Positions 4,969 through 64,000 of a DNA stretch of 64,000 nucleotides are shown here, piece after piece (position 1 is the stretch's first letter; each line of letters starts with the position of its first letter). The notes under the pieces are model-generated. The model saw only the letters and a list, made by a program, of their open reading frames with translations, was not told the DNA's origin and searched no databases. This DNA is from Thalassavirus gary. Lineage: Duplodnaviria; Heunggongvirae; Uroviricota; Caudoviricetes; Demerecviridae. Where the stretch lies: the IMG/VR virus record IMGVR_UViG_2974784677_000001. One strand, given 5' to 3'. Made by a program: the position numbers and the translations under genes.

Positions 4969-5745
4969 TTATTCTCCGATAATATTAATTAATTCTTTGA
5001 TAGTTACAATTGGTAGGTCGTTTGCAAGAGCTTTCTTGTAAGACGAAGATCCTTTCTTCGTCTCGTCTTCACAAACGAGATATTTAACAGTTTTGGTAAC
5101 GCTGCCTTTGACAGTGATACCGAATTGTGATAAGTAGTCAGCAGCCTTAGTACGACTAGCGTAGTCGTTAAGCTTGCCTGTGATACATACATCGAATTTG
5201 TGCTCTGTATTTTGTGTCGGTTTTGTGCTTACTTCCGCAAAAGTAATAAAACCGTCTAGAGCTTCGATTGTATCTAAACCCTCTAGTGAATTACACCAGT
5301 CCATGAGGGATTCCGTAGCTTTCGCACCTAGACCTGCATCCGTACAGGCTTTAGCAGTGATTTCCTGAAAGCTATTGATTTTTGTAGCAAGCTTCTCAGC
5401 GGCTACTTTACCGATTAACTTAATACCAAGTGAGCCAAGAACTAAGGCAAATTCACTGGTTTTAGTTTTCTGTATTTCGGTAAAGAGTTTCGAACCTACT
5501 TTGTCTCCAAGAACTGATGTGAGCCGCTGCTCGGTCAGGTTATATAGTCCTGAAATAGTAGTTAGTTCTAGTTTGGAAACAGTTGCAGAGCCAAAACCCT
5601 TAATTTTCATTTTCTTACAGTAGTTCTCAACAAGTTTTGAACTCTGTGCGGGACAAGCAGTTTTATTTCGACAGAATAATTGACCGTTAACGTTTTCAAG
5701 CGTTGAGCCGCATGACGGACATTCTGTTGGAATTACTATTTGCAT
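4969..5745 (-). CDS. NAD-dependent DNA ligase, C-terminal part (Zn-finger + HhH domains) = ligase subunit B
   Basis: CPSCGSTLENVNGQLFCRNKTACPAQ aligns with LigA C4 zinc finger; KGFGSATVSKL HhH motifs follow. Confidence 0.7.
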   Translation of the reverse strand: MQIVIPTECPSCGSTLENVNGQLFCRNKTACPAQSSKLVENYCKKMKIKGFGSATVSKLELTTISGLYNLTEQRLTSVLGDKVGSKLFTEIQKTKTSEFALVLGSLGIKLIGKVAAEKLATKINSFQEITAKACTDAGLGAKATESLMDWCNSLEGLDTIEALDGFITFAEVSTKPTQNTEHKFDVCITGKLNDYASRTKAADYLSQFGITVKGSVTKTVKYLVCEDETKKGSSSYKKALANDLPIVTIKELINIIGE

Positions 5746-6462: not shown

Positions 6463-6860
6463 GATACGTGTACCTCATTCTTACTTCTTGAAATGGTAGT
6501 TTTAGCTTCGTATCCCAATACTCTTAGTGCTGTTTTTAGTCTACATGCTTGGGAATAATCTTCTTTATATATAATCACACTATTTTTGAACTTAGACTCA
6601 GCTTCAGCAATTTTCTCACGAGCACCAACTTCCTCTACATAGATAGCTGCACTCGCTTTCATACAACGACGAGAGTATGCTGCATCCTTTATAGGTACTG
6701 GTCGCATTGCAGCAGCACCTAGAGTCGGTTCTACACGGGGCATTTTAGAACCAGAGCTTGGTTTAGGTGGGTCTTCTTTGGGGCATAGTGCAGCCGCCCC
6801 CGTAAGTGTTGCCTTTGGTTTTAGACCAGGCAGTCGTATATCCCAAAGTCTAATTCCCAT
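6456..6860 (-). CDS. hypothetical protein (inserted between ligase halves)
   Basis: 134-aa ORF, stop/start coupled with flanking genes; no recognisable nuclease motif. Confidence 0.3.
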   Translation of the reverse strand: MGIRLWDIRLPGLKPKATLTGAAALCPKEDPPKPSSGSKMPRVEPTLGAAAMRPVPIKDAAYSRRCMKASAAIYVEEVGAREKIAEAESKFKNSVIIYKEDYSQACRLKTALRVLGYEAKTTISRSKNEVHVSW

Positions 6861-7828
6861 TAGAAAGCCTCCACAATCTTAGGAATGATACCACCTGCAC
6901 GAATAATACGAACTTCTTGACCGATATGCGTGATACCCATCGCTTTCATATATTCTACATTATTTAAAGTAACACGAGTTACCTTGGCATCTTCAAGAAC
7001 TACTTCTTTAACAATAGCAACCGGAGTTACTTTACCGGAAGCGCCTACCCCCCAGATAACGTTTTCGATGGTAGTGATCTCACCTTCATCGTCTTCCTTA
7101 ACAGCGAATGCGCCTTTAGGGTACTTAGAAGTGAAACCCGCTGCGAAGTAAGCACGGTTACGTTTTAGACGGTATACTAGACCATCAGTCATGATTAGAC
7201 CATGCTCTACAGCTTTCTTAACGTTGTCGCTAAGAATAGTATGGAATCCTAGATTCTCTAGTTCTTTCATATCGTTATCGTACATAGCGCCTAGGCAACC
7301 ATCAGCACAAGTCTGTACGTTGTAAGCGATGAAACGCAAGCCGCCTTCCATGAGACGAGTCATGAACTCCTGACCATTATCAAGGTTCATAGCACCTGAC
7401 GCATAGTTACGAGCATTTTCAATATCTTTAGTAGTTACTACTTCACCAGTTACCTGCATAATCGGAGCGTAGTAGTCTACATTTGCAGGTACTAGATGCT
7501 CTAGGTTCTGTGTAATATCACGACCTTTAACACCGTCACCACGAGTCAAACATTGAACCAGCTTACCATTAATATATAGACAATCAACAGCACAGCCATC
7601 AAGTTTTGGTGACTCGATGTACGGTTCTAGATTAGGTAGTTCGTCACCACGACAAGGGTATTTCTTCTCTAGCGACCACATACGAAACATGTGAGCTTCC
7701 TCACCCTTGTGACCAATAGTTACTTCTGCATCTGGGAAGCGACGAATAAGAGCATCATACTCTTCGTCAGAGATTAGTGGTTCACCATCGTAGTACGCAC
7801 GCTGAAGTTCTGCAATAAATTGTTTCAT
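6860..7828 (-). CDS. NAD-dependent DNA ligase, N-terminal part (Ia + adenylation + OB domains) = ligase subunit A
   Basis: N-terminal Ia motif YYDGEPLISDEEYDAL, adenylation lysine motif KLDG, ends after OB fold (EVRIIRAGGIIPKIV). Confidence 0.8.
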   Translation of the reverse strand: MKQFIAELQRAYYDGEPLISDEEYDALIRRFPDAEVTIGHKGEEAHMFRMWSLEKKYPCRGDELPNLEPYIESPKLDGCAVDCLYINGKLVQCLTRGDGVKGRDITQNLEHLVPANVDYYAPIMQVTGEVVTTKDIENARNYASGAMNLDNGQEFMTRLMEGGLRFIAYNVQTCADGCLGAMYDNDMKELENLGFHTILSDNVKKAVEHGLIMTDGLVYRLKRNRAYFAAGFTSKYPKGAFAVKEDDEGEITTIENVIWGVGASGKVTPVAIVKEVVLEDAKVTRVTLNNVEYMKAMGITHIGQEVRIIRAGGIIPKIVEAF

Positions 7829-7861
7829 TCAAATCTCCTTTAATTTATAAACATATTATAC

Positions 7862-8128
7862 TTACATTCTACCTGAAACGCAAGTTGAGATTTGCGGAAT
7901 TGAGACCTGTAAATGCTTCTCAATTAAATCCGCAGATTCGTTTGCAGAAAATTGGTGACAGGCGCAGATAAAAACTCGAACCTGGGCACAGAACGTTTCA
8001 TAGTTATCACCCTGATTAAGCATCAAGATATGAGACTTACCCTTAGCTAAGTCATCAGCAGCTGCCTTACAACGACGATGGAATGACTGCTGTAAGTCTT
8101 TTTGTGATAGTGGTTTGCCATATTTCAT
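7862..8128 (-). CDS. hypothetical protein
   Basis: 88-aa ORF in co-directional gene string. Confidence 0.3.
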   Translation of the reverse strand: MKYGKPLSQKDLQQSFHRRCKAAADDLAKGKSHILMLNQGDNYETFCAQVRVFICACHQFSANESADLIEKHLQVSIPQISTCVSGRM

Positions 8129-33918: not shown

Positions 33919-34464
33919 ATGAAGAATCAAATTTACCTAGCAGGCGATATGCTAAACCGTGGTGCTCAACTTCAACGAGCAGAAGAAAAACGTGATTTGC
34001 TTAATCTAGGGTACGAATTATACGTGCCACAGGATAATAAAGATATAAATGATAAAGAAAATCTTAACTCGAATGATGGTCTAGCAGAGAAAATTGTTCG
34101 TGCAGATACAGATGGTATCGTGAATTCTGATATCGTGGTCATGGAAGCTCGTGAAGCAGCTCTTGGTACTTGTATTGAACTTGGTCAGATTAAAGGCATG
34201 AAAGACGTCGCTAAAACAGTCTTGTCTATGCTAGAGTCTGGTTGCTCTCTTAAAGAAGTAATTCATAATATGGAGCAAATTCGTGATAAGCTTGTTCTAG
34301 TTCACAACTCAGATATTCGTCGTGCAGGTAATCCTACCGAAACAGGCGATCGTCGCAGCTATGCCCCTCACCAGTACATGTACGGTGTAGTGCTTGATGT
34401 AACCAACGGTCATGGTTACTACGATTGGAACGAAGTTACATACATCCTAGACCGAGGTGTATAA
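33919..34464 (+). CDS. nucleoside 2-deoxyribosyltransferase-like (NDT/Rcl fold) protein; start taken at MKNQIYLAGD after RBS GGAG
   Basis: IYLAGDM motif (NDT family YLAGP-like) and downstream acidic GTCIELG; track ORF starts further upstream at 33742. Confidence 0.45.
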   Translation: MKNQIYLAGDMLNRGAQLQRAEEKRDLLNLGYELYVPQDNKDINDKENLNSNDGLAEKIVRADTDGIVNSDIVVMEAREAALGTCIELGQIKGMKDVAKTVLSMLESGCSLKEVIHNMEQIRDKLVLVHNSDIRRAGNPTETGDRRSYAPHQYMYGVVLDVTNGHGYYDWNEVTYILDRGV

Positions 34465-35090
34465 TGTTAGAAAAGATTTGGTCAGTTATTGCGGTGCTCC
34501 TAGTAATCGGAGCATCAATCATCTCAGGGGCAGATTTGTTTGTGTCTGCCTTGAGTCTAGTAGGTATTCTGTTTGTACTAGGTGTCGCCTTTAAGCGACC
34601 AGAGTCACAGTTACTGGGTGCTGTATTCTGCGGGTTCTTGGCGTTTGCCTCGATGGGCGCAGGCTTTTATGCGAATGCAGTCGTTAATGGATTGATACTA
34701 ATCCCCGCCTCTATATATGGATATTTTCATTGGAAGCGAAGAAAAGGTTTTCAATTAGAGCAAAGTATGTCTAGTGGTGGACTCACTAATATGATTGTTT
34801 CATTAGTGGCCGTCACAGCATTAGTGTTCTTCTTTGGAACTATGGGAGCAGGTGGGGCTATGCCTCTACTAGATGCCCTAACTGGAGTCATGCCAGTATT
34901 TGCAACATTCTTAATGATTGGTGCATATCGAGAGCAATGGCTTCTATGGATACCCTTTAATGCAATACAAGCCTTTATGTGGTTTACCGCCGCGTCTTTG
35001 CAGCCTGCGGTACTGGCGGTGTTTGTGTTGAAACTGGTATTCTTGATTAATTCATTAATCGGATTTTATACTTGGAGAAAAGAGGCGTAA
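34464..35090 (+). CDS. pnuC: PnuC-like nicotinamide riboside/NMN transporter (multi-TM)
   Basis: 6-7 predicted TM helices, IYGYFHWKRRKG resembles the PnuC GW..W motif; TAATG coupling to upstream NDT-like gene. Confidence 0.5.
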   Translation: MLEKIWSVIAVLLVIGASIISGADLFVSALSLVGILFVLGVAFKRPESQLLGAVFCGFLAFASMGAGFYANAVVNGLILIPASIYGYFHWKRRKGFQLEQSMSSGGLTNMIVSLVAVTALVFFFGTMGAGGAMPLLDALTGVMPVFATFLMIGAYREQWLLWIPFNAIQAFMWFTAASLQPAVLAVFVLKLVFLINSLIGFYTWRKEA

Positions 35091-37888: not shown

Positions 37889-37918
37889 ATTGCGAAGTAG
37901 GTCAATCTCAAGTATAAT
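37889..37918 (+). promoter_or_regulatory. early promoter TTGCGA-18-TATAAT
   Basis: promoter family; leader ACATAAATTGAAGAAGGAAACAGAATATG. Confidence 0.55.
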
Positions 37919-37948
37919 ATATACATAAATTGAAGAAGGAAACAGAAT

Positions 37949-49525: not shown

Positions 49526-49554
49526 TTGTCAACTTACAAAAATTTTCATATAAT
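49526..49554 (+). promoter_or_regulatory. promoter TTGTCA-17-TATAAT
   Basis: hexamers and spacing; leader AAGAAATTAAGGAGAGCTTATG. Confidence 0.5.
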
Positions 49555-49578
49555 ATATAAAGAAATTAAGGAGAGCTT

Positions 49579-53459: not shown

Positions 53460-53488
53460 TTGCTAAACAACCTGAAATTCTCTATAAT
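53460..53488 (+). promoter_or_regulatory. early promoter TTGCTA-17-TATAAT
   Basis: leader ACATAAATTAAAGAGAAGGAAGATTAAAATG. Confidence 0.6.
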
Positions 53489-53520
53489 ATATACATAAAT
53501 TAAAGAGAAGGAAGATTAAA

Positions 53521-57833: not shown

Positions 57834-58078
57834 ACGTAATTATTTTTAACGGAAACGTACTACCAGCAGATAGAGCCGCTCTGTTTGGTGACGAAGAGGT
57901 AGTGTTCGTAGCTCCTAGTGATGCCCGAGATCTACCTAGCCTGTTAGCTTTCCTAGGCATCTACAAGTCTACCTCTCAGGCTCGTCAGGCAGGTCGTAAA
58001 GGCAAAATCCCTACTGGCTGGACAGTGATGAAGGCTAGTAAGAAAGTTGAACTATTTATTTGGAATCCTACGGAGTAG
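57812..58078 (+). CDS. hypothetical protein
   Basis: 88-aa ORF. Confidence 0.35.
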   Translation: MWGRFSMNVIIFNGNVLPADRAALFGDEEVVFVAPSDARDLPSLLAFLGIYKSTSQARQAGRKGKIPTGWTVMKASKKVELFIWNPTE

Positions 58079-59010
58079 AAGATATGAAATTTAACGTACA
58101 AGATTTGATCGACCGTGGCTTGGTTAAAGCTAAAGAATACGACAATGGACTAAAAGTATTGAAGTACGACCGTAAGGTATTCTTCAAGAACTTGTGGCAT
58201 CTAGACGAACGCTTGCTTGAGTGTCGTGGTCGTGTGGTAGACGCTGACTGGAATGTGATTGTTAATCCATTCAAGAAAGTATTCAACTATGGTGAAAACG
58301 GTACTGGTAACGAACTACGTACTGACTGCCTGTACCGTGAAGTACACAAGCTTAATGGCTTCTTGGGCTGCGTGACTAACTCGTCTGAATATGGTATGTT
58401 GTACTCTACTACTGGTACACTGGATTCTACGTATGCACAGATGGTTAAAGATATGTTCGTACACCATACTCACCATGCAGATCTGCTTCACAAAGACTTT
58501 ACTATGATGTTTGAGGTGTGTCACCCAGATGACCCACACATTGTAGAAGAGCAAGTGGGTCTATATCTAATTGGTATCAGACACACTGGTGAAGGCGACG
58601 AGTGTGAAGAAGACCAGTTTACAGAAGCAGAGCTAGATAAAATGGCACGCTGGTTCGGTTGGAGTCGTCCAGAGCATCGTCTAGATACACTCGACAATAT
58701 CCTAGCACGAGCTAAAATGTCTAAAACAGAAGGTGTTATGGTGTGTTCAGCATTAAATGACGAGCACTTGTTTAAATACAAGACTCCACACTATCTGTCT
58801 AAAAAGCTGCTGATGCGTCTAGGTAAAGCTCGTGTGGAGCAGTTGTTTGACAACCCAGAGCAGTTTAAGAAGAACTTAAAGGATGAAGAGTTCTTTGGTT
58901 TTGTGGAATATGTTTCTTCTAATATCCCCCGCGATGTGTGGAAGACCATGAAAGATCAAGAACGACGTAACCTTATTGAGTGTTGGTTCGATAAAAACAA
59001 CGCTTTTTAA
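58060..59010 (+). CDS. ATP-dependent RNA/polynucleotide ligase (covalent nucleotidyltransferase superfamily, Rnl-like)
   Basis: motif I HKLNGF (KxNG), motif III FEVCH, motif IV TEGVMV, motif V LFKYKTP. Confidence 0.5.
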   Translation: MESYGVEDMKFNVQDLIDRGLVKAKEYDNGLKVLKYDRKVFFKNLWHLDERLLECRGRVVDADWNVIVNPFKKVFNYGENGTGNELRTDCLYREVHKLNGFLGCVTNSSEYGMLYSTTGTLDSTYAQMVKDMFVHHTHHADLLHKDFTMMFEVCHPDDPHIVEEQVGLYLIGIRHTGEGDECEEDQFTEAELDKMARWFGWSRPEHRLDTLDNILARAKMSKTEGVMVCSALNDEHLFKYKTPHYLSKKLLMRLGKARVEQLFDNPEQFKKNLKDEEFFGFVEYVSSNIPRDVWKTMKDQERRNLIECWFDKNNAF

Positions 59011-59030
59011 ATTGCCAAAGCAGGGATGCT
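59002..59030 (+). promoter_or_regulatory. early promoter TTGCCA-17-TATAAT
   Basis: inside the 3' end of the ligase gene; leader TAGAAATTGAGGAGATTGTTATG. Confidence 0.5.
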
Positions 59031-59065
59031 TTGATATAATATCTGTAGAAATTGAGGAGATTGTT

Positions 59066-59470
59066 ATGAAAAAACTATATTTGATTCGCGGTGTATCTGG
59101 TTCTGGCAAAACTACTCTAGCTAAAACAATGGAACAAGGTATGCTATACTCTCGTGCTGTTGCTGCTGATGACTACTTTATGGTAGAAGGCAAATATCTG
59201 TTTGATGTAAACAAGCTACATGCAGCACATCAATGGTGTCAAGACCAAGTTGATGGTCTTATGGTTTGCGAAATGCACCACATTATTGTGCATAACACCT
59301 TCACTACAGAAAAAGAAATGAAACCATACCTTAACCTAGCAGAAAAGTATGGTTATGAAGTAACAACTCTAGTGGTTGAAAATCGTCACGAATCGGAATC
59401 GGTACACGATGTACCAGAAGAAACTCTAACACGTCAGCATCAACGCCTACGTGCGAACATCCGTCTATAA
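59066..59470 (+). CDS. polynucleotide 5'-kinase (T4 Pnk kinase-domain-like P-loop protein)
   Basis: LIRGVSGSGKTTLAK Walker A; C-terminal VHDVPEETLTRQHQRLR resembles T4 Pnk VFDVPWTELVKRNSKR; start at MKKLYLIRG after RBS GAGGAG. Confidence 0.5.
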   Translation: MKKLYLIRGVSGSGKTTLAKTMEQGMLYSRAVAADDYFMVEGKYLFDVNKLHAAHQWCQDQVDGLMVCEMHHIIVHNTFTTEKEMKPYLNLAEKYGYEVTTLVVENRHESESVHDVPEETLTRQHQRLRANIRL

Positions 59471-59479
59471 GGAGATAAT

Positions 59480-60043
59480 ATGCGTCTACAGTTCGGAGCA
59501 AAACTAAATCCAGATGTGAATTATTTTATCACGTCTGACTTACACTTCTTTCATACTAACATTATGAAGTTCTGCCCAGAGACGCGTCCTTGGGCTGACC
59601 ATAATGAAATGACGGAAGCACTTATTGCACATTGGAACTCTATTGTGGGTGAAGATGATGTAGTGTTCCACCTTGGAGATTTTTCATTCGCAGGAATGGA
59701 GAAAACTCAGGCTGTCCTAGACCGATTGAATGGTACAATTGTATTTGTAATGGGCAACCACGACAAAACTGTTCGAAATCAGTTGAAGTCACCAAACAAG
59801 TTCGAATATCTCGAAGTTACTTATAATAAAATCAAAATCTGTATGTTCCACTATGCAATGCGTGTATGGAATATGCAACATCATGGTAGCATCCATTTCT
59901 ATGGTCACTCTCATGGGTCACTAGAAGGTACTGGACGCTCTATGGACGTGGGCTATGATGCTCATGGTCGAATCCTGCCGCTAGATTGGGCAGTAAAACG
60001 AATGCAGAAAATTCAAGACATCGAAACAGAGGATCATCACTAA
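59480..60043 (+). CDS. calcineurin-like metallophosphoesterase (candidate 2',3'/3'-phosphatase partner)
   Basis: DLHFFH, GDFSF, GNHD, GHSHG motifs. Confidence 0.6.
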   Translation: MRLQFGAKLNPDVNYFITSDLHFFHTNIMKFCPETRPWADHNEMTEALIAHWNSIVGEDDVVFHLGDFSFAGMEKTQAVLDRLNGTIVFVMGNHDKTVRNQLKSPNKFEYLEVTYNKIKICMFHYAMRVWNMQHHGSIHFYGHSHGSLEGTGRSMDVGYDAHGRILPLDWAVKRMQKIQDIETEDHH

Positions 60044-60627
60044 TGAAAAAGTTTCTAGTATTAATGGCGGCAGTACTATCTTTCAACGCATCTGCTGGTA
60101 GCTGTGCGCAGCAGGTAGGAAATATTAGTGGTCTAGATAAGGCTACTAAACAAACAATGATAATTCAGTGTGAGCAAGCAAAGCTAACAAGCATTAAAAA
60201 TGCTCCACAAGAAGTTGGTGAGATTTCGGATGCAACCGTCGAAAAGATGGATAAATGGTCAGAAATTTCCTTGAAGTTCGCGAAAGCGATTGGTGTGGCA
60301 GCTAAGGAAGTTGGTGTAGCCACTAACGAGTTCCTAGGGACTCCGGCTGGTAAGTTTACAGCAACTATTATAGCATGGAAGATATTTAATGGTACATCAT
60401 GGCTTGCTTTCTTTTTGATGCTAGCTATTACTACCATTATAATCCGAAGTTTCATTCGATTCGTACGCCATAGCGGGTACGAGGAAGTATCTGGTAAGCT
60501 CTTTAATTATAAGAGACCAACCAAGTATACATGGAAAGAAATGGGTGAGAACCAAGTTGGTATGTGCGTTCTAGCATATATTGTCTATATAGTAGTCGTA
60601 TTCTTTACAGCAGTTAATTTATTCTAA
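59986..60627 (+). CDS. membrane protein with signal peptide and C-terminal TM helices
   Basis: signal FLVLMAAVLSFNASA; TM WLAFFLMLAITTIII and LAYIVYIVVVFFTAV. Confidence 0.4.
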   Translation: MGSKTNAENSRHRNRGSSLMKKFLVLMAAVLSFNASAGSCAQQVGNISGLDKATKQTMIIQCEQAKLTSIKNAPQEVGEISDATVEKMDKWSEISLKFAKAIGVAAKEVGVATNEFLGTPAGKFTATIIAWKIFNGTSWLAFFLMLAITTIIIRSFIRFVRHSGYEEVSGKLFNYKRPTKYTWKEMGENQVGMCVLAYIVYIVVVFFTAVNLF

Positions 60628-61088
60628 TGATTAAATATATTGCAATACTATCAAGCCTAGTGCTAATGCTAGGCTTTGCTCACGATGCCCTTGCAACTGA
60701 AAAAGTTGAAGACCCCACTAAGATTGAAGTCTATGGCGGGGCTCTGTCGTATCACTTCGATACTGATAAAGACCTTAACAATGTAAACCCACTAGTCATT
60801 GCTACATATGACGATTGGGCTACAGGCTACTTCTATAATAGCTATAAAGAGAACTCCTTTATGGTAGGTAGAAACTTCTACCTAGAAAGACCTGATCGTT
60901 CTCCTGTAGTTATAGGGGTAATACTCGGAGCTGTAACGGGCTATAATAAAAATCAAGTACCTATGTGCTTTACAGATGGATTCTGTCCTATGGTAATGCC
61001 TTATATTCAATGGCATTATGGAAACTGGAAGCCAACCATAATCTTCGGCGGAGCATTTGTGTCTGCTGCTGTTGGGTACGAATTTTAA
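60627..61088 (+). CDS. outer-membrane beta-barrel protein candidate (PagL/OmpW-size)
   Basis: signal peptide ILSSLVLMLGFAHDALA, alternating amphipathic strands, C-terminal GYEF ending in Phe. Confidence 0.4.
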   Translation: MIKYIAILSSLVLMLGFAHDALATEKVEDPTKIEVYGGALSYHFDTDKDLNNVNPLVIATYDDWATGYFYNSYKENSFMVGRNFYLERPDRSPVVIGVILGAVTGYNKNQVPMCFTDGFCPMVMPYIQWHYGNWKPTIIFGGAFVSAAVGYEF

Positions 61089-61093
61089 ATCTT

Positions 61094-61117
61094 AGGTTGC
61101 TTCGGCAACCTTTTTTA
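61094..61117 (+). terminator. rho-independent terminator
   Basis: AGGTTGC-TTCG-GCAACCT + TTTTTT. Confidence 0.65.
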
Positions 61118-61125
61118 CGTATAAT
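61097..61125 (+). promoter_or_regulatory. early promoter TTGCTT-17-TATAAT overlapping the upstream terminator
   Basis: leader ATGTATAAATTAAAGAGAAGGAAACAATATG. Confidence 0.55.
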
Positions 61126-61155
61126 ATATGTATAAATTAAAGAGAAGGAAACAAT

Positions 61156-62028
61156 ATGTCAAATATTAGCATTATGTGTAACGGCGACAACCACCATTAC
61201 GAACTACAAGTAGACTTCACTAAATTCTCAGATGGAGCAGAAACTTGTACTATTCGCAAACCAAATGTAGACCTTACTAAGTCTAACTTCGTGGTCGTTA
61301 CTATTAACTTCCAAGACGTTACTCGTGATATTGTACGTCTACTCCTAGTGAAAGATGCGCTAGACAATATGCGTGCTGAAAACTGTATCAATTGGGGACG
61401 TATCTCACTAAACATGCCATATATCCCTAACGCCCGTGCTGACCGTAAGTTTGGTTTCGGTATGCCGCTACCTGTTAAGGTATTTGCTAACCTTATCAAT
61501 GCAATGAACTTCGATGAAGTAATGGTAGAAGACCCTCATTCAGATGTTAGTGTGGCACTTATCAACAACGCCACTGTGCTAGACCAATCAGCATTGGTTA
61601 GTATGATGGAACATCATATCGAAAGATACATGCCAGACTTCACTCTGTGTGCACCAGACCTAGGTGCTGCAAAGAAAATCTTTGATGTAGCGTTTGCTAT
61701 GGATAAGCGTGACTGGATTCAAGGTCTTAAAATCCGTGACGTACTTACAGGTGATATTGTTAAGTGTGACCTAGTGCAAGATGAAGTGCCTGAAAATGTT
61801 CTTATTGTAGACGACATTTCAGACGGTGGAGCATCATTCAAGTTCTTGGCTAAGAAACTAAAAGAGCGCGGAGCTAAGAAAGTAGGTCTATATGTTACTC
61901 ATGGTATCTTCTCTAAGGGTCTAGACCCAATCCGCGAAGATATTGATTATGTATTCGTACACAACTTCATTGGTGGCTACATCAATGCAGCAAACGTTCT
62001 AGCATTCAACGAAGGTAAGGATCAATAA
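61156..62028 (+). CDS. ribose-phosphate pyrophosphokinase (PRPP synthetase) family protein; candidate ADP-ribose pyrophosphokinase (Adps-like)
   Basis: VLIVDDISDGGASFKFLAKKLKERGAKKVGLYVTHGIFS closely parallels Prs [38 protein letters not shown]. Confidence 0.7.
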   Translation: MSNISIMCNGDNHHYELQVDFTKFSDGAETCTIRKPNVDLTKSNFVVVTINFQDVTRDIVRLLLVKDALDNMRAENCINWGRISLNMPYIPNARADRKFGFGMPLPVKVFANLINAMNFDEVMVEDPHSDVSVALINNATVLDQSALVSMMEHHIERYMPDFTLCAPDLGAAKKIFDVAFAMDKRDWIQGLKIRDVLTGDIVKCDLVQDEVPENVLIVDDISDGGASFKFLAKKLKERGAKKVGLYVTHGIFSKGLDPIREDIDYVFVHNFIGGYINAANVLAFNEGKDQ

Positions 62029-62504
62029 TGATTAAAGTAGTTCATGGTGATATGGTCAAACATCTACAATCAAAAGACCACCTAGATGCATATGCTCACC
62101 AATGTAACTGTTTCTGTAGAATGGGGAGAGGCATTGCGCCTCTTCTAGCTAAGGCAGTTCCTGGCCTTAGAAAAGCAGATGATATGACTGTTCCTGGTGA
62201 TAAGTCTAAGTTAGGTAGTGTATCTTTATCTGCACATCCTAACGGAGCAGTAGTATTTAATGTCTATGGTCAATATCATTGGCACGCACATAAAGTAGCA
62301 CCAGGCAGAAATACTGACTATGGTGCGCTTAGAAATGGACTAATTACAGTTATTGATCTAATGCAAGAGCATGATTTTAAGACTCTAGGTCTACCTTTGA
62401 TTGGCTGTGGGCTAGCAGGTGGCGATTGGGATAATGTTGTACTCCCAATGATTCACGAATTATTTAATGGATCGGGTGTTGACGTTACTATTTTTAAATT
62501 GTAA
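62028..62504 (+). CDS. macro-domain protein (ADP-ribose binding/processing)
   Basis: 158 aa; HQCNCFCRMGRGIA and GLPLIGCGLAGGDW resemble macro-domain Gly-rich loops; ATGA coupling to the Prs-like gene. Confidence 0.55.
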   Translation: MIKVVHGDMVKHLQSKDHLDAYAHQCNCFCRMGRGIAPLLAKAVPGLRKADDMTVPGDKSKLGSVSLSAHPNGAVVFNVYGQYHWHAHKVAPGRNTDYGALRNGLITVIDLMQEHDFKTLGLPLIGCGLAGGDWDNVVLPMIHELFNGSGVDVTIFKL

Positions 62505-62533
62505 TTGCTTAACTAACTAAAATCTCGTATAAT
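62505..62533 (+). promoter_or_regulatory. early promoter TTGCTT-17-TATAAT
   Basis: leader ACACATAAATTAAAGAAGACAACAAAGGAAATAATCTATG. Confidence 0.55.
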
Positions 62534-62572
62534 ATACACATAAATTAAAGAAGACAACAAAGGAAATAATCT

Positions 62573-64000
62573 ATGTCATACAATATCCCTTACCTAGCAG
62601 CACTTATCACTGACGGTTACAAAGTATTCCACCCGTTTGCTTACCGCCCAGGCACTACTCACGTGTACAGTAACGGTACTGCTCGATTTAATAAACACTC
62701 GAACGTACCAAACAACGCTGAAATTGTTCACTTTGGTATCCAAATGGCTCTACAGAAGCTAAACACATTGTGGAACGAAAACTTCTTCAAGCACCCTAAA
62801 GAAGCAGTTCTAGCAGAATACCAACGTGTTATCTCTGGCTACCTTGGCAAGAAAATCAGCGTAGACCATATCGATAAACTACACGATGTTGGTTATCTGC
62901 CAATCGAAGTTAAGTCGCTACCAGAAGGTTCTCTTGTACCTTATGGTGTGCCACCATACACTATTCATAACACTGTGGAAGGTCTAGGTTGGGTAACTAA
63001 CTTGCTAGAAACTCCGTTCAGTGCTGAATACTGGCCTGCTGTAACATCTGCAACTACTGCGTTTGCTTACCGCTCTCGCTTCGAACAAGTACCTGCACTA
63101 CGTGCTGGTGGCATGATTAAGTTCATGGGTCACGACTTCTCTGCTCGTGGTCTATGGGGTATGTTTGCACCCGAACAGAATGGTCACTTGACTTCATTCG
63201 TTGGTACAGACTCTATGGTATCTGGTCTGGCAATGGAGCAATACTACGATGCTCGAATCGACAAAGAGCTAGTAATGGCTTCTGTTGATGCTACTGAGCA
63301 CTCAGTAATGTGTTCATACGAAACAGAGAACGAGCTAGAGTCATTGATTCACTTGATCAGTAATGTTACCCCAAACGGTATCATCTCTATCGTTTCTGAT
63401 ACATGGGACTTCTGGCAGTTGGTAACTCAGTACCTACCAGAAATCAAAGACCTAATCATGTCTCGTGATGGTACAGTGGTTATTCGTCCAGACTCAGGCG
63501 ACCCAGTTAAGATTCTTACTGGTTACACTATCGGCGAACAAGAGTTCGTAAGCGTAGATGACTACTACGAATACTATGACTACCGAATCGCTCCTAAACC
63601 AGAAGCGGTTAAAATCGGTGGAGTCTACCATGAAATGGGTGGTATTTCACAAGATGGTCGAGTTGGTCTAGGTAAAACGCTAGAAGAACACGAAGTAAAA
63701 GGTCTAATCGAGTGCCTATGGGATACATTCGGTGGTACAGAAGTTGATGGTCTACGTCTACTAGACTCACACATTGGAGCTATCTATGGTGACTCTATTA
63801 CCCTAGAACGTCAAGACCAAATTATCAAGCGTTTGCTTGCTAAAGGTTTCGTTCCTAGCGTAGTTCTTGGTATTGGTTCATTCACATACCAGTACGTTAC
63901 TCGTGATACTCACGGCTTTGCTATTAAAGCTACTGACATTCAAGTTGGTGAAGGCAATCACATTGCTATTAGCAAAGACCCTAAAACTGACCAAAGCAAA
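62573..64000 (+). CDS. nicotinamide phosphoribosyltransferase family protein (NadV/Nampt or Namat-like), 5' partial; continues beyond window end
   Basis: ITDGYKVFH..., LPIEVKSLPEGSLVPYG..., EYWPAVTSATTA closely parallel human NAMPT LATDSYKVTH, LPIEIKAVPEGFVIPRG, SWYPITVATNS. Confidence 0.75.
   Translation, partial: MSYNIPYLAALITDGYKVFHPFAYRPGTTHVYSNGTARFNKHSNVPNNAEIVHFGIQMALQKLNTLWNENFFKHPKEAVLAEYQRVISGYLGKKISVDHIDKLHDVGYLPIEVKSLPEGSLVPYGVPPYTIHNTVEGLGWVTNLLETPFSAEYWPAVTSATTAFAYRSRFEQVPALRAGGMIKFMGHDFSARGLWGMFAPEQNGHLTSFVGTDSMVSGLAMEQYYDARIDKELVMASVDATEHSVMCSYETENELESLIHLISNVTPNGIISIVSDTWDFWQLVTQYLPEIKDLIMSRDGTVVIRPDSGDPVKILTGYTIGEQEFVSVDDYYEYYDYRIAPKPEAVKIGGVYHEMGGISQDGRVGLGKTLEEHEVKGLIECLWDTFGGTEVDGLRLLDSHIGAIYGDSITLERQDQIIKRLLAKGFVPSVVLGIGSFTYQYVTRDTHGFAIKATDIQVGEGNHIAISKDPKTDQSK

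What the first reader, a model, noticed from the sequence alone, without database searches (positions are those of the whole stretch)
61156..64000. Operon of PRPP-synthetase-like, macro-domain and Nampt-like genes: candidate phage NAD+ reconstitution / anti-defence module
Three co-directional genes behind early promoters: a Prs-family pyrophosphokinase (VLIVDDISDGG motif), a 158-aa macro domain (an ADP-ribose binding or processing fold) that is translationally coupled to it, and a Nampt-family phosphoribosyltransferase. A Prs-like enzyme paired with a Nampt-like enzyme is the architecture reported for the phage pathway that rebuilds NAD+ from ADP-ribose and nicotinamide (ADPR -> ADPR-PP -> NAD+). 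That pathway counters NAD-depleting immunity such as Thoeris, DSR, CBASS-TIR and SEFIR. A classical NadV salvage route would instead need an NMN adenylyltransferase, which is not visible here. The inserted macro domain is not part of the described two-gene pathway. It could feed the module by releasing ADPR from immune signals or from ADP-ribosylated targets. The whole package may be a new three-component variant.
Basis: partly seen in the sequence, partly recalled or inferred. Interest (0 to 1): 0.78.

Follow-up and report, generated by a model that had tools for sequence, protein, structure and literature searches.

The report
Known phage NAD+ rebuilding operon

Summary
The window is Vibrio phage Gary (NC_055913.1 46313-110312) with 0 mismatches in 64,000 bases. 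At 61156-64000 lie a Prs-like gene (290 aa), a 158-aa macro-domain gene overlapping it by one base (TAATG), and a Nampt-like gene cut by the window end (476 of 537 codons).

Sequence tests place the outer two genes in the NARP1 enzymes, not in Prs/NadV:
- The Prs-like protein is 55% identical to the structurally solved ICP1 Adps. It keeps every named active-site residue and the remodelled PP loop.
- The Nampt-like protein carries the Namat-specific motif GSFTYQYVTRD. It matches the solved SpβL1 Namat at E 1e-116, against about 1e-41 to 1e-45 for true Nampts.
- No Nmnat gene is annotated anywhere in the phage genome.

Osterman et al. (bioRxiv 10.64898/2026.01.28.702374) cloned this very operon from phage Gary and named it NARP1-AP (Adps-Adpp-Namat). 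They showed that the purified macro protein KNV71_gp137 dephosphorylates ADPR-1''-phosphate to ADPR. That lets NARP1 overcome the aRES (RES-domain) NAD+ phosphorylase defence.

Verdict: already known, low interest.

The parts
61094..61116 (+). Terminator-like hairpin (AGGTTGC-TTCG-GCAACCT) plus T-run, closing the upstream PagP-like gene. The -35-like hexamer of the next promoter lies inside it.
   Evidence: 7-bp stem, 4 GC pairs, TTTTTT tail. The same hairpin/promoter cassette recurs just after namat in Gary (L001:11200-11236).
61097..61125 (+). Sigma-70-type promoter-like site TTGCTT-N17-TATAAT in front of adps.
   Evidence: 4 exact matches in the window, 0.02 expected. The extended motif CGTATAATATAnnnATAAATTAAAGA is at 61118-61143. 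Consensus match only; no transcription data.
61156..62028 (+). adps: ADP-ribose pyrophosphokinase (Prs-like), 290 aa, = Gary gp181 / YP_010114328.1.
   Evidence: PHROG 619 E 1.8e-82. 55% identical to ICP1 Adps, with R94, H128, D168, K192, D219, D220 and D223 conserved and PP loop DDISDGGASFKF. Scores below the TIGR01251 Prs cut-off (99.9 < 113). Mutation of this gene abolished anti-aRES activity in the preprint.
62028..62504 (+). adpp: macro-domain ADPR-1''-phosphate phosphatase, 158 aa, = KNV71_gp137 / YP_010114329.1. Translationally coupled to adps.
   Evidence: Pfam Macro PF01661 and PHROG 335. AF2 model pLDDT 95.4. Macro fold; top PDB matches are TARG1/OARD1 at TM 0.80 and Poa1p at TM 0.77-0.79. 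The purified Gary protein converts ADPR-1P to ADPR (preprint).
62505..62533 (+). Second promoter-like site TTGCTT-N17-TATAAT, in the 68-nt gap between adpp and namat.
   Evidence: extended motif at 62526-62551, 0 mismatches. No terminator-like site lies between adpp and namat.
62573..64000 (+). namat: nicotinamide ADP-ribose transferase (Nampt-like). First 476 of 537 codons, = Gary gp183 / YP_010114330.1. Cut by the window end.
   Evidence: PHROG 448 E 4.5e-157. Best PDB hits are SpβL1 Namat 9W5W/9W5X, E 1.2e-116, against about 1e-41 to 1e-45 for Nampts. SCH motif GSFTYQYVTRD at aa 435-445 matches the Namat signature GSXΦXΦXΦTRD.

Best explanation
This is the NARP1-AP counter-defence operon of Vibrio phage Gary. 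When a host defence destroys NAD+, the phage rebuilds it from the breakdown products.
1. Adpp (macro domain) removes the 1''-phosphate from ADPR-1''-phosphate, the product of RES-domain (aRES) NAD+ phosphorolysis, giving ADPR.
2. Adps (Prs-like) transfers pyrophosphate from ATP to ADPR, giving ADPR-PP.
3. Namat (Nampt-like) joins nicotinamide to ADPR-PP, giving NAD+.

Against ordinary NADases (SIR2, TIR, SEFIR), which release ADPR directly, steps 2 and 3 suffice.

Status of each step:
- Shown elsewhere for this exact operon: anti-aRES and anti-Nezha activity, the requirement for all three genes, and Adpp phosphatase activity in vitro.
- Shown here: sequence identity to that operon and family-defining residues.
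- Inferred: Adps and Namat chemistry for the Gary proteins specifically (by homology to the ICP1 and SpβL1 enzymes), promoter use and timing, and relevance in the native Vibrio host.
For: - Identity: the window equals NC_055913.1 46313-110312 with 0 mismatches. The 3-kb region is 100% identical to Gary and GRLPWR.
- Literature: the preprint 10.64898/2026.01.28.702374 cloned Adps-phosphatase-Namat from phage Gary. The operon overrode aRES and Nezha defence. Inactivating any of the three genes abolished this. Purified KNV71_gp137 converted ADPR-1P to ADPR.
- Adps: 55% identity to ICP1 Adps, with all residues named in PMC13586617 conserved, including the catalytic Lys (K192 = K185) and the PP loop. 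It fails the Prs family cut-offs.
- Namat: 394 bits to solved SpβL1 Namat, against about 140-156 bits to Nampts. The SCH motif is intact. In the SCL, Lys41-His42 aligns to Arg40'.
- Adpp: confident macro fold, with Poa1p among the significant matches.
- No Nmnat or NadR is annotated in the genome.
- The module is bracketed by hairpin/promoter cassettes.
- The arrangement is conserved in 48 of 49 related Vibrio phage records.
Against: - The key functional evidence is a preprint. It comes from heterologous expression in E. coli challenged with T7 and vB_EcoM-KAW1E185, not from phage Gary in Vibrio.
- By both sequence profile and fold, Adpp is closer to TARG1/OARD1, BT1257 and SCO6735 than to Poa1p, so other substrates are not excluded.
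- The Gary Adps and Namat enzymes were not assayed individually.
- Namat is truncated in the window.
- The promoter calls are consensus matches only.
Confidence: 0.93

Rival explanations
1. Classical salvage: the Prs-like protein makes PRPP and the Nampt-like protein is a NadV that makes NMN. NAD+ is then completed by a phage or host Nmnat (NARP2-like or general nucleotide metabolism).
For: GenBank and RefSeq annotate the genes as ribose-phosphate pyrophosphokinase and nicotinamide/nicotinate phosphoribosyltransferase. NCBIfam NF006629 is passed at 418 bits against a cut-off of 405. Namat retains residual PRPP activity in vitro, according to PMC12774641.
Against: - No Nmnat or NadR is annotated in the 128.6-kb genome.
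- The Namat-specific SCH motif is present, and the match to solved Namat is much stronger than to Nampt.
- The Adps donor-site PP loop and Lys are conserved, and the protein scores below the Prs cut-offs.
- NARP1-AP depended on Adpp to beat aRES, which would make no sense for a PRPP-based route.
Confidence: 0.03
2. The macro protein's main or additional job is de-ADP-ribosylation or deacylation, like its closest structural relatives TARG1/OARD1 and DarG. It would remove ADP-ribose from DarT-modified DNA, from modified proteins or RNA, or from O-acetyl-ADPR, and would only incidentally feed NARP1.
For: Closest solved relatives are TARG1/OARD1 (Foldseek E 2.6e-13, TM 0.80; profile E 1.7e-20), BT1257 and SCO6735, then DarG (E 3e-9), ahead of Poa1p (E 1e-7 to 3e-6). 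There is a weak NCBIfam DarG hit at E 1e-8. Adpp-like macros occur in 2705 phage records, more than the 1514 records with an Adps-like gene, so many sit outside NARP1 operons.
Against: - The position aligned to TARG1's 'GCGLD' aspartate is an invariant alanine (A130, 'GCGLAGG') in 44 homologues. The catalytic role of that Asp is from my own knowledge of TARG1.
- The DarG score is far below its cut-off (34.9 against 250).
- The purified Gary protein does dephosphorylate ADPR-1P, and its deletion specifically abolishes anti-aRES activity.
- No other substrate has been tested either way.
Confidence: 0.1
3. The macro phosphatase serves the adjacent RNA-repair genes. In yeast, Poa1p clears ADPR-1''-phosphate generated during tRNA ligation; here the macro protein would do the same for phage tRNA repair rather than act in counter-defence.
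For: An Rnl1-type RNA ligase, an AAA_33/PNK-like kinase and a metallophosphoesterase lie 1-3 kb upstream (58060-60043). The same ligase + kinase sit directly next to Adps/Namat/macro in the unrelated Pseudomonas phage bmx-p3. Poa1p's known role is in tRNA splicing.
Against: - No Tpt1/KptA-type 2'-phosphotransferase is annotated in the phage genome.
- From established knowledge, T4-type Rnl1/PNK repair leaves no 2'-phosphate and so makes no ADPR-1''P.
- The macro gene is translationally coupled to adps, not to the repair genes.
- A hairpin/promoter cassette separates the two clusters.
- Experimental data tie Adpp to aRES.
Confidence: 0.02

Closest known systems
NARP1-AP (Adps-Adpp-Namat) of Vibrio phage Gary, Osterman et al., bioRxiv 10.64898/2026.01.28.702374
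   Same: Identical DNA (0 mismatches). Same three genes in the same order. The paper names KNV71_gp137, which is window 62028-62504.
   Different: Nothing, except that the window lacks the last 61 codons of namat.
NARP1 (two-gene Adps + Namat) of Bacillus phage SpβL1 and Vibrio phage ICP1
   Same: Same two core enzymes. Adps is 55% identical to ICP1 Adps and keeps all active-site residues. Namat matches the SpβL1 Namat structure at E 1e-116 and has the same SCH motif.
   Different: - A macro-domain phosphatase is inserted between the two genes.
- Namat carries an insertion of about 50 aa (aa ~320-373) that is absent from the SpβL1 and ICP1 proteins.
- The two-gene NARP1 cannot counter aRES.
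NARP2 (NadV/Nampt + NatV/Nmnat) of Vibrio phage KVP40
   Same: A Nampt-fold enzyme that uses nicotinamide. Purpose is to restore NAD+ during infection.
   Different: NARP2 uses PRPP and needs an Nmnat. Gary has no annotated Nmnat, and its enzyme carries the Namat adenine clamp.
NARP3 (PnuC-like transporter + NadR-like enzyme) of phage Bas30
   Same: Gary also has a PnuC-family gene, elsewhere in the window (34464-35090).
   Different: Its neighbour is a nucleoside 2-deoxyribosyltransferase-family protein, not a NadR-like enzyme. It is 26 kb away from the operon.
Yeast Poa1p, ADP-ribose 1''-phosphate phosphatase (PDB 6LFQ/6LFR)
   Same: Macro fold (TM 0.77-0.79, E 3e-9) and the same reaction, ADPR-1''P to ADPR.
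   Different: Only 19-20% identity. Poa1p acts in tRNA splicing clean-up, not in viral counter-defence. It is not the closest solved relative.
Human TARG1/OARD1 and bacterial BT1257 / SCO6735 macrodomains
   Same: Closest solved relatives by fold and by profile (TM 0.80-0.81; profile E 1e-20 to 1e-22).
   Different: TARG1's 'GCGLD' aspartate position is an invariant alanine in the Adpp family. TARG1 removes ADP-ribose from modified substrates rather than removing a phosphate from free ADPR-1''P.
RyDEP + NARP1 (mycobacteriophage RyR-domain glycosidase), bioRxiv 10.64898/2026.05.28.727677
   Same: The same logic: an accessory enzyme converts a non-standard ADPR derivative into ADPR that fuels NAD+ synthesis.
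   Different: [quoted passage not shown] No such gene was seen here.

Membership tests
NARP1-AP operon | [quoted passage not shown] | tested here: met
   adps 61156-62028, macro (PF01661, 31.2 bits > 22) 62028-62504, namat 62573 onward. All are adjacent and co-directional.
NARP1-AP operon | Restores NAD+ and overcomes aRES defence; all three genes required | not testable with these tools
   Reported for this exact operon in the preprint. Sequence identity to that operon was verified here.
Adps (ADPR pyrophosphokinase) | PRPS-like fold with conserved acceptor-site residues (ICP1 Arg87, His121, Asp161, Asp212, Asp213, Asp216) | tested here: met
   R94, H128, D168, D219, D220 and D223 are invariant in the alignment with ICP1 Adps. 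Residue list from PMC13586617.
Adps (ADPR pyrophosphokinase) | Remodelled PP loop for the ATP donor (ICP1 C215-S220, then the F221/F223 lid) and catalytic Lys185 on the β-hairpin | tested here: met
   Gary has DDISDGGASFKF against ICP1 DDICDGAASFKF. K192 aligns to K185, and I201/V202/C204 align to I194/V195/C197.
Adps (ADPR pyrophosphokinase) | Makes ADPR-PP from ADPR + ATP | not testable with these tools
   Not assayed for the Gary protein alone. Mutating adps abolished operon function.
Canonical ribose-phosphate pyrophosphokinase (Prs) | Passes the curated Prs family thresholds (TIGR01251 and the NF00xxxx equivalogs) | tested here: not met
   TIGR01251 scores 99.9 bits against a cut-off of 113. 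All equivalogs score 29-81 bits against cut-offs of 296-536. All three Pfam Prs domains are below gathering scores.
Namat (nicotinamide ADP-ribose transferase) | SCH signature GSXΦ1XΦ2XΦ3TRD, with aromatic residues at the X positions | tested here: met
   G435-S-F-T-Y-Q-Y-V-T-R-D445. Motif definition.
Namat (nicotinamide ADP-ribose transferase) | SCL (β1-β2 loop) supplies an adenine-stacking residue: Arg, or Lys/Tyr followed by the stacking residue | tested here: inconclusive
   In the phmmer alignment SpβL1 Arg40' aligns to Gary Lys41, followed by His42. This fits the 'Lys + next residue' variant, but the loop is 3 residues longer and no structure was modelled.
Namat (nicotinamide ADP-ribose transferase) | Closer to solved Namat than to Nampt | tested here: met
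   9W5W/9W5X (SpβL1 Namat) score 394 bits, E 1.2e-116. Xcc and human Nampts score 138-156 bits.
NARP2 (Nampt + Nmnat) | An Nmnat partner gene in the same phage (94% of phages with a KVP40-type Nampt homologue also encode one) | tested here: not met
   No Nmnat, NadR or NadM product appears among the 222 annotated features of Gary. This rests on annotation only; no independent HMM scan of all ORFs was run.
NARP3 (PnuC + NadR-like) | Adjacent PnuC-like transporter and bifunctional NadR-like enzyme | tested here: not met
   A PnuC-like gene is present (PF04973, E 7e-29), but its neighbour is PF05014 Nuc_deoxyrib_tr.
Adpp / Poa1p-like ADPR-1''P phosphatase | Macro fold with detectable homology to Poa1p | tested here: met
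   AF2 pLDDT 95.4. 6LFQ/6LFR at E 3-5e-9, TM 0.77-0.79. Profile E 1e-7. TARG1, BT1257 and SCO6735 score higher.
TARG1/OARD1-type ADP-ribosyl hydrolase | Catalytic Asp in the GCGLD loop (Lys84/Asp125 dyad; residue roles from my own knowledge) | tested here: not met
   The aligned position is Ala130, invariant across 44 homologues. The Lys position is ambiguous because of gaps in the alignment.

The most novel reading that the evidence does not exclude
Adpp may be more than a dedicated ADPR-1''P phosphatase. It sits in the TARG1/OARD1-BT1257-DarG branch of macrodomains, and homologues occur in more phage records than Adps does. It may therefore also strip ADP-ribose from other defence products, such as DarT-modified DNA, O-acyl-ADPR or other phosphorylated ADPR species. 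Together with the neighbouring RNA-repair trio, it could form a wider 'damage reversal' island that recurs in unrelated phages such as Pakpunavirus bmx-p3.
Probability: 0.12. Interest if true: 0.5.

Novelty: already known. Interest (0 to 1): 0.18.

Why it matters
NAD+ depletion is one of the most common bacterial anti-phage strategies. NARP1-AP shows how a phage extends a two-enzyme NAD+ rebuilding route with a phosphatase to defeat a defence (aRES) that evolved to make NARP1's substrate unusable. For this scan, the value is as a positive control. A reader working from raw sequence alone recovered a three-gene counter-defence pathway and its logic correctly. There is no new biology to claim at this locus.

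Tried and rejected
- **Solved Adps structure.** I searched the PDB copy for one to compare with directly. Only canonical Prs entries came back, best E 1.6e-13. The Adps entries of PMC13586617 are not in this copy, so I used the ICP1 genome sequence instead.
- **Standard sigma-70 scan.** It missed both operon promoters because TTGCTT matches only 3 of 6 of TTGACA. An explicit TTGCTT-N17-TATAAT search found them.
- **PnuC-like gene as a hidden NARP3 or Nmnat route.** Rejected, because its partner is a nucleoside 2-deoxyribosyltransferase-family protein, not a NadR-like enzyme.
- **Macro gene belonging to the upstream RNA-repair cluster.** Rejected as the main reading. The gene is coupled to adps, a hairpin/promoter cassette separates the clusters, and no Tpt1-like gene is annotated.
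- **TARG1-type hydrolase mechanism.** The aspartate position is alanine.
- **Further literature on Adpp/NARP1-AP.** A search found only the one preprint.
- **Failed script.** A first Python comparison failed on file naming and was repeated successfully.
- **ICP1 Namat.** The annotated ICP1 'hypothetical protein' downstream of Adps lacks the N-terminal ~58 residues in the alignment, probably a gene-call issue. I did not use it for N-terminal (SCL) comparisons.
Full report
**1. What is in the sequence**

The flagged interval holds three co-directional ORFs on the + strand.
- 61156-62028, 290 aa.
- 62028-62504, 158 aa.
- An ORF starting at 62573 that runs off the window end, with 476 codons inside the window.

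The first stop codon and the second start codon overlap in TAATG, with an AAGGA about 7 nt upstream. The claim of translational coupling therefore holds.

Family assignments are far beyond chance.
- Gene 1 matches PHROG 619, 'ribose-phosphate pyrophosphokinase', at E 1.8e-82.
- Gene 2 matches Pfam Macro PF01661 above its gathering score, and PHROG 335, 'phosphatase', at E 1.3e-49.
- Gene 3 matches PHROG 448, 'nicotinamide phosphoribosyl transferase', at E 4.5e-157, and Pfam NAPRTase at E 2e-28.

**2. Where the window comes from**

A megablast of 61000-64000 gave 100% identity to Vibrio phage Gary and Vibrio phage GRLPWR. It gave 80-97% identity to 46 further Vibrio harveyi, campbellii and parahaemolyticus phages. 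A direct string comparison shows that the whole window equals NC_055913.1 positions 46313-110312, with 0 mismatches in 64,000 bases.

Gary is a T5-like siphovirus (Demerecviridae, Thalassavirus). The three genes are:
- gp181 / YP_010114328.1
- KNV71_gp137 / YP_010114329.1
- KNV71_gp136 / YP_010114330.1, which is 537 aa in full.

**3. Transcription signals**

A terminator-like hairpin with a T-run at 61094-61116 closes the upstream gene. Inside it begins TTGCTT-N17-TATAAT (61097-61125). An identical arrangement of hexamers lies at 62505-62533, between the macro gene and the third gene. Only four exact copies occur in the window, against 0.02 expected.

The sequence downstream of the -10 element is also shared (CGTATAATATAnnnATAAATTAAAGA). 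It has six copies at up to 3 mismatches, against none expected.

No terminator-like site separates genes 2 and 3. Just after the third gene, outside the window, Gary has the same hairpin/promoter cassette again.

The module is therefore a bounded unit with an internal second promoter-like site. These are consensus matches. Neither their use nor their 'early' timing was tested.

**4. Is the Prs-like protein Adps or Prs?**

- Against solved structures it matches canonical Prs only weakly, best E 1.6e-13.
- It falls below the Pfam and NCBIfam Prs cut-offs. TIGR01251 scores 99.9 against 113, and the equivalogs score 29-81 against 296-536.
- It is 55% identical to the ICP1 protein. The PP-loop numbering of that protein matches the Adps whose structures are reported in PMC13586617.
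- Every residue that paper names is conserved. The acceptor site is R94, H128, D168, D219, D220 and D223. The catalytic β-hairpin Lys is K192 (= K185). The donor contacts are I201, V202 and C204. The remodelled PP loop and lid read DDISDGGASFKF, against DDICDGAASFKF in ICP1.

**5. Is the Nampt-like protein Namat or NadV?**

- The full Gary protein matches the SpβL1 Namat crystal structures 9W5W/9W5X at E 1.2e-116 (394 bits). Bacterial and human Nampts score about 138-156 bits.
- The Namat-specific selectivity-clamp helix motif GSXΦXΦXΦTRD is present as GSFTYQYVTRD at aa 435-445, inside the window.
- The NAD+-contacting residues D14 and Y16 align to SpβL1 Asp13' and Tyr15'.
- SpβL1 Arg40' aligns to Lys41-His42. 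This fits the 'Lys plus following residue' variant described for other Namats. I rate that last point inconclusive, because the loop differs in length.
- No Nmnat, NadR or NadM gene is annotated anywhere in the genome. This argues against a NARP2-type route.

**6. The macro protein**

An AlphaFold2 model built on 44 homologues is confident, with pLDDT 95.4.

| Solved relative | Foldseek vs PDB | Profile search |
|---|---|---|
| BT1257 | E 7.3e-12, TM 0.81 (2FG1) | E 2.6e-22 |
| TARG1/OARD1 | TM 0.80, E 2.6e-13 (top hit) | E 1.7e-20 |
| SCO6735 | listed lower | E 9e-20 |
| DarG macrodomain | listed after BT1257 | E 3e-9 |
| Poa1p | TM 0.77-0.79, E about 3e-9 | E 1e-7 |

Poa1p is thus a genuine relative, but not the nearest solved one. 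The loop where TARG1 has 'GCGLD' reads 'GCGLAGG' here. The alanine is invariant in the family alignment. That argues against a TARG1-type mechanism; the catalytic role of that Asp is from my own knowledge.

**7. What is already known**

Osterman et al. (bioRxiv 10.64898/2026.01.28.702374, 28 Jan 2026) report the following.
- 15% of phages that carry NARP1 also have a Macro-domain gene associated with the NARP1 operon.
- The operon overrides the aRES defence, a RES-domain NAD+ phosphorylase that yields nicotinamide plus ADPR-1''-phosphate. It also overrides Nezha.
- Inactivating any one of the three genes abolishes the effect.
- Purified KNV71_gp137 converts ADPR-1P to ADPR.
- They name the enzyme Adpp and the pathway NARP1-AP.

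Because the window is base-for-base that operon, the finding is already explained. A search for other papers on Adpp or NARP1-AP found none.

**8. Mechanism and its status**

Adpp converts ADPR-1''P to ADPR. Adps adds pyrophosphate from ATP to give ADPR-PP. Namat joins nicotinamide to ADPR-PP to give NAD+.
- Shown for this operon by others: the anti-defence phenotype, the requirement for all three genes, and Adpp activity.
- Shown here: sequence identity and signature residues.
- Inferred: the individual chemistry of Gary Adps and Namat, promoter use, and the role in the native Vibrio host.

The phage encodes an NAD-dependent DNA ligase, annotated as two pieces. This gives an obvious reason to protect the NAD+ pool; that link is my inference.

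**9. Rivals**

- Classical Prs + NadV salvage is rejected (sections 4 and 5).
- A TARG1/DarG-like de-ADP-ribosylating role for Adpp is not excluded as an extra activity, but it lacks support.
- A link to the upstream RNA-repair genes is suggested by neighbourhood only. The same neighbourhood occurs in Pseudomonas phage bmx-p3. The link lacks a Tpt1-type enzyme to make the substrate.

**10. Verdict**

The novelty rating is 'already known', and the interest is low. Its suggestion that this might be a new three-component variant has been overtaken by the 2026 preprint.

Noticed in passing
window 58060-60043 (+); also L004:1-958: An RNA-repair-like trio lies directly upstream: an Rnl1-type RNA ligase (58060-59010, PF09511), an AAA_33/polynucleotide-kinase-like P-loop protein (59069-59470) and a calcineurin-like metallophosphoesterase (59480-60043). 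An RNA ligase + kinase pair also sits immediately next to Adps/Namat/macro in the unrelated Pseudomonas phage bmx-p3. The two repair/rebuild modules may therefore travel together.
   Followed up: partly
window 33919-35090 (+): A PnuC-family transporter gene (34464-35090, PF04973 E 7e-29) overlaps by one base a nucleoside 2-deoxyribosyltransferase-family gene (33919-34464, PF05014). It looks like half of the NARP3 pathway (PnuC + NadR) but with a different partner. It may be nucleoside/deoxynucleoside salvage rather than NAD+ related.
   Followed up: partly
window 4969-5745 and 6860-7828 (- strand): The phage's NAD-dependent DNA ligase is annotated as two separate ORFs (Gary gp57 and gp60), with a DprA-like gene and a hypothetical gene between them. 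An NAD+-requiring ligase gives a direct reason for the phage to defend the NAD+ pool.
   Followed up: no
window 61094-61125; L001:11200-11236; motif copies at 7837-7862(-), 37911-37936, 49547-49572, 53481-53506, 61118-61143, 62526-62551: There is a recurrent combined terminator/promoter cassette. A GGTTGCTTCGGCAACC hairpin contains the -35-like TTGCTT, followed by a T-run and CGTATAAT. The region downstream of the -10 element (ATAAATTAAAGA) is also conserved. It has six copies at up to 3 mismatches, against zero expected.
   Followed up: partly
window 63530-63691 (Namat aa ~320-373): Gary Namat carries an insertion of about 50 residues between DSGDPVKILTG and EVKGLIECLWD. The insertion is absent from the solved SpβL1 Namat and from ICP1 Namat. 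It is present, in diverged form, in Pseudomonas phage bmx-p3 Namat, which also has a nearby macro gene. Its function is unknown.
   Followed up: partly
window 62028-62504 and phage database hits: Adpp-like macro proteins are found by tblastn in 2705 phage records, but Adps-like proteins in only 1514. Many macro hits are in T4-like phages next to the 'valyl-tRNA synthetase modifier' gene, with no NARP1 gene annotated under or beside the match. The role of these stand-alone copies is not explained by the NARP1-AP model.
   Followed up: no
window 62028-62504: The preprint calls Poa1p the closest homologue of known function. By phmmer, by profile hmmsearch and by Foldseek, the nearest solved relatives are instead BT1257, TARG1/OARD1 and SCO6735. 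Poa1p is more distant (profile E 1e-7 against 1e-20 to 1e-22).
   Followed up: yes
window 60043-61088 (+): Two translationally coupled genes (TAATG overlap at 60625-60629) lie just before the operon. One is a 194-aa protein with a predicted N-terminal signal and C-terminal hydrophobic segments (PHROG 19575, function unknown). The other is a 153-aa protein labelled 'PagP' in RefSeq. That label rests only on PHROG 3600, where the protein matches just the C-terminal half of the profile, and there is no Pfam hit at E<0.01, so the label looks weak.
   Followed up: partly
L002:4488-5807 (Vibrio phage ICP1 MW794169): The ICP1 gene downstream of Adps is annotated 'hypothetical protein'. It aligns to Namat but lacks about 58 N-terminal residues. 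This is probably a mis-called start or an unannotated Namat.
   Followed up: no
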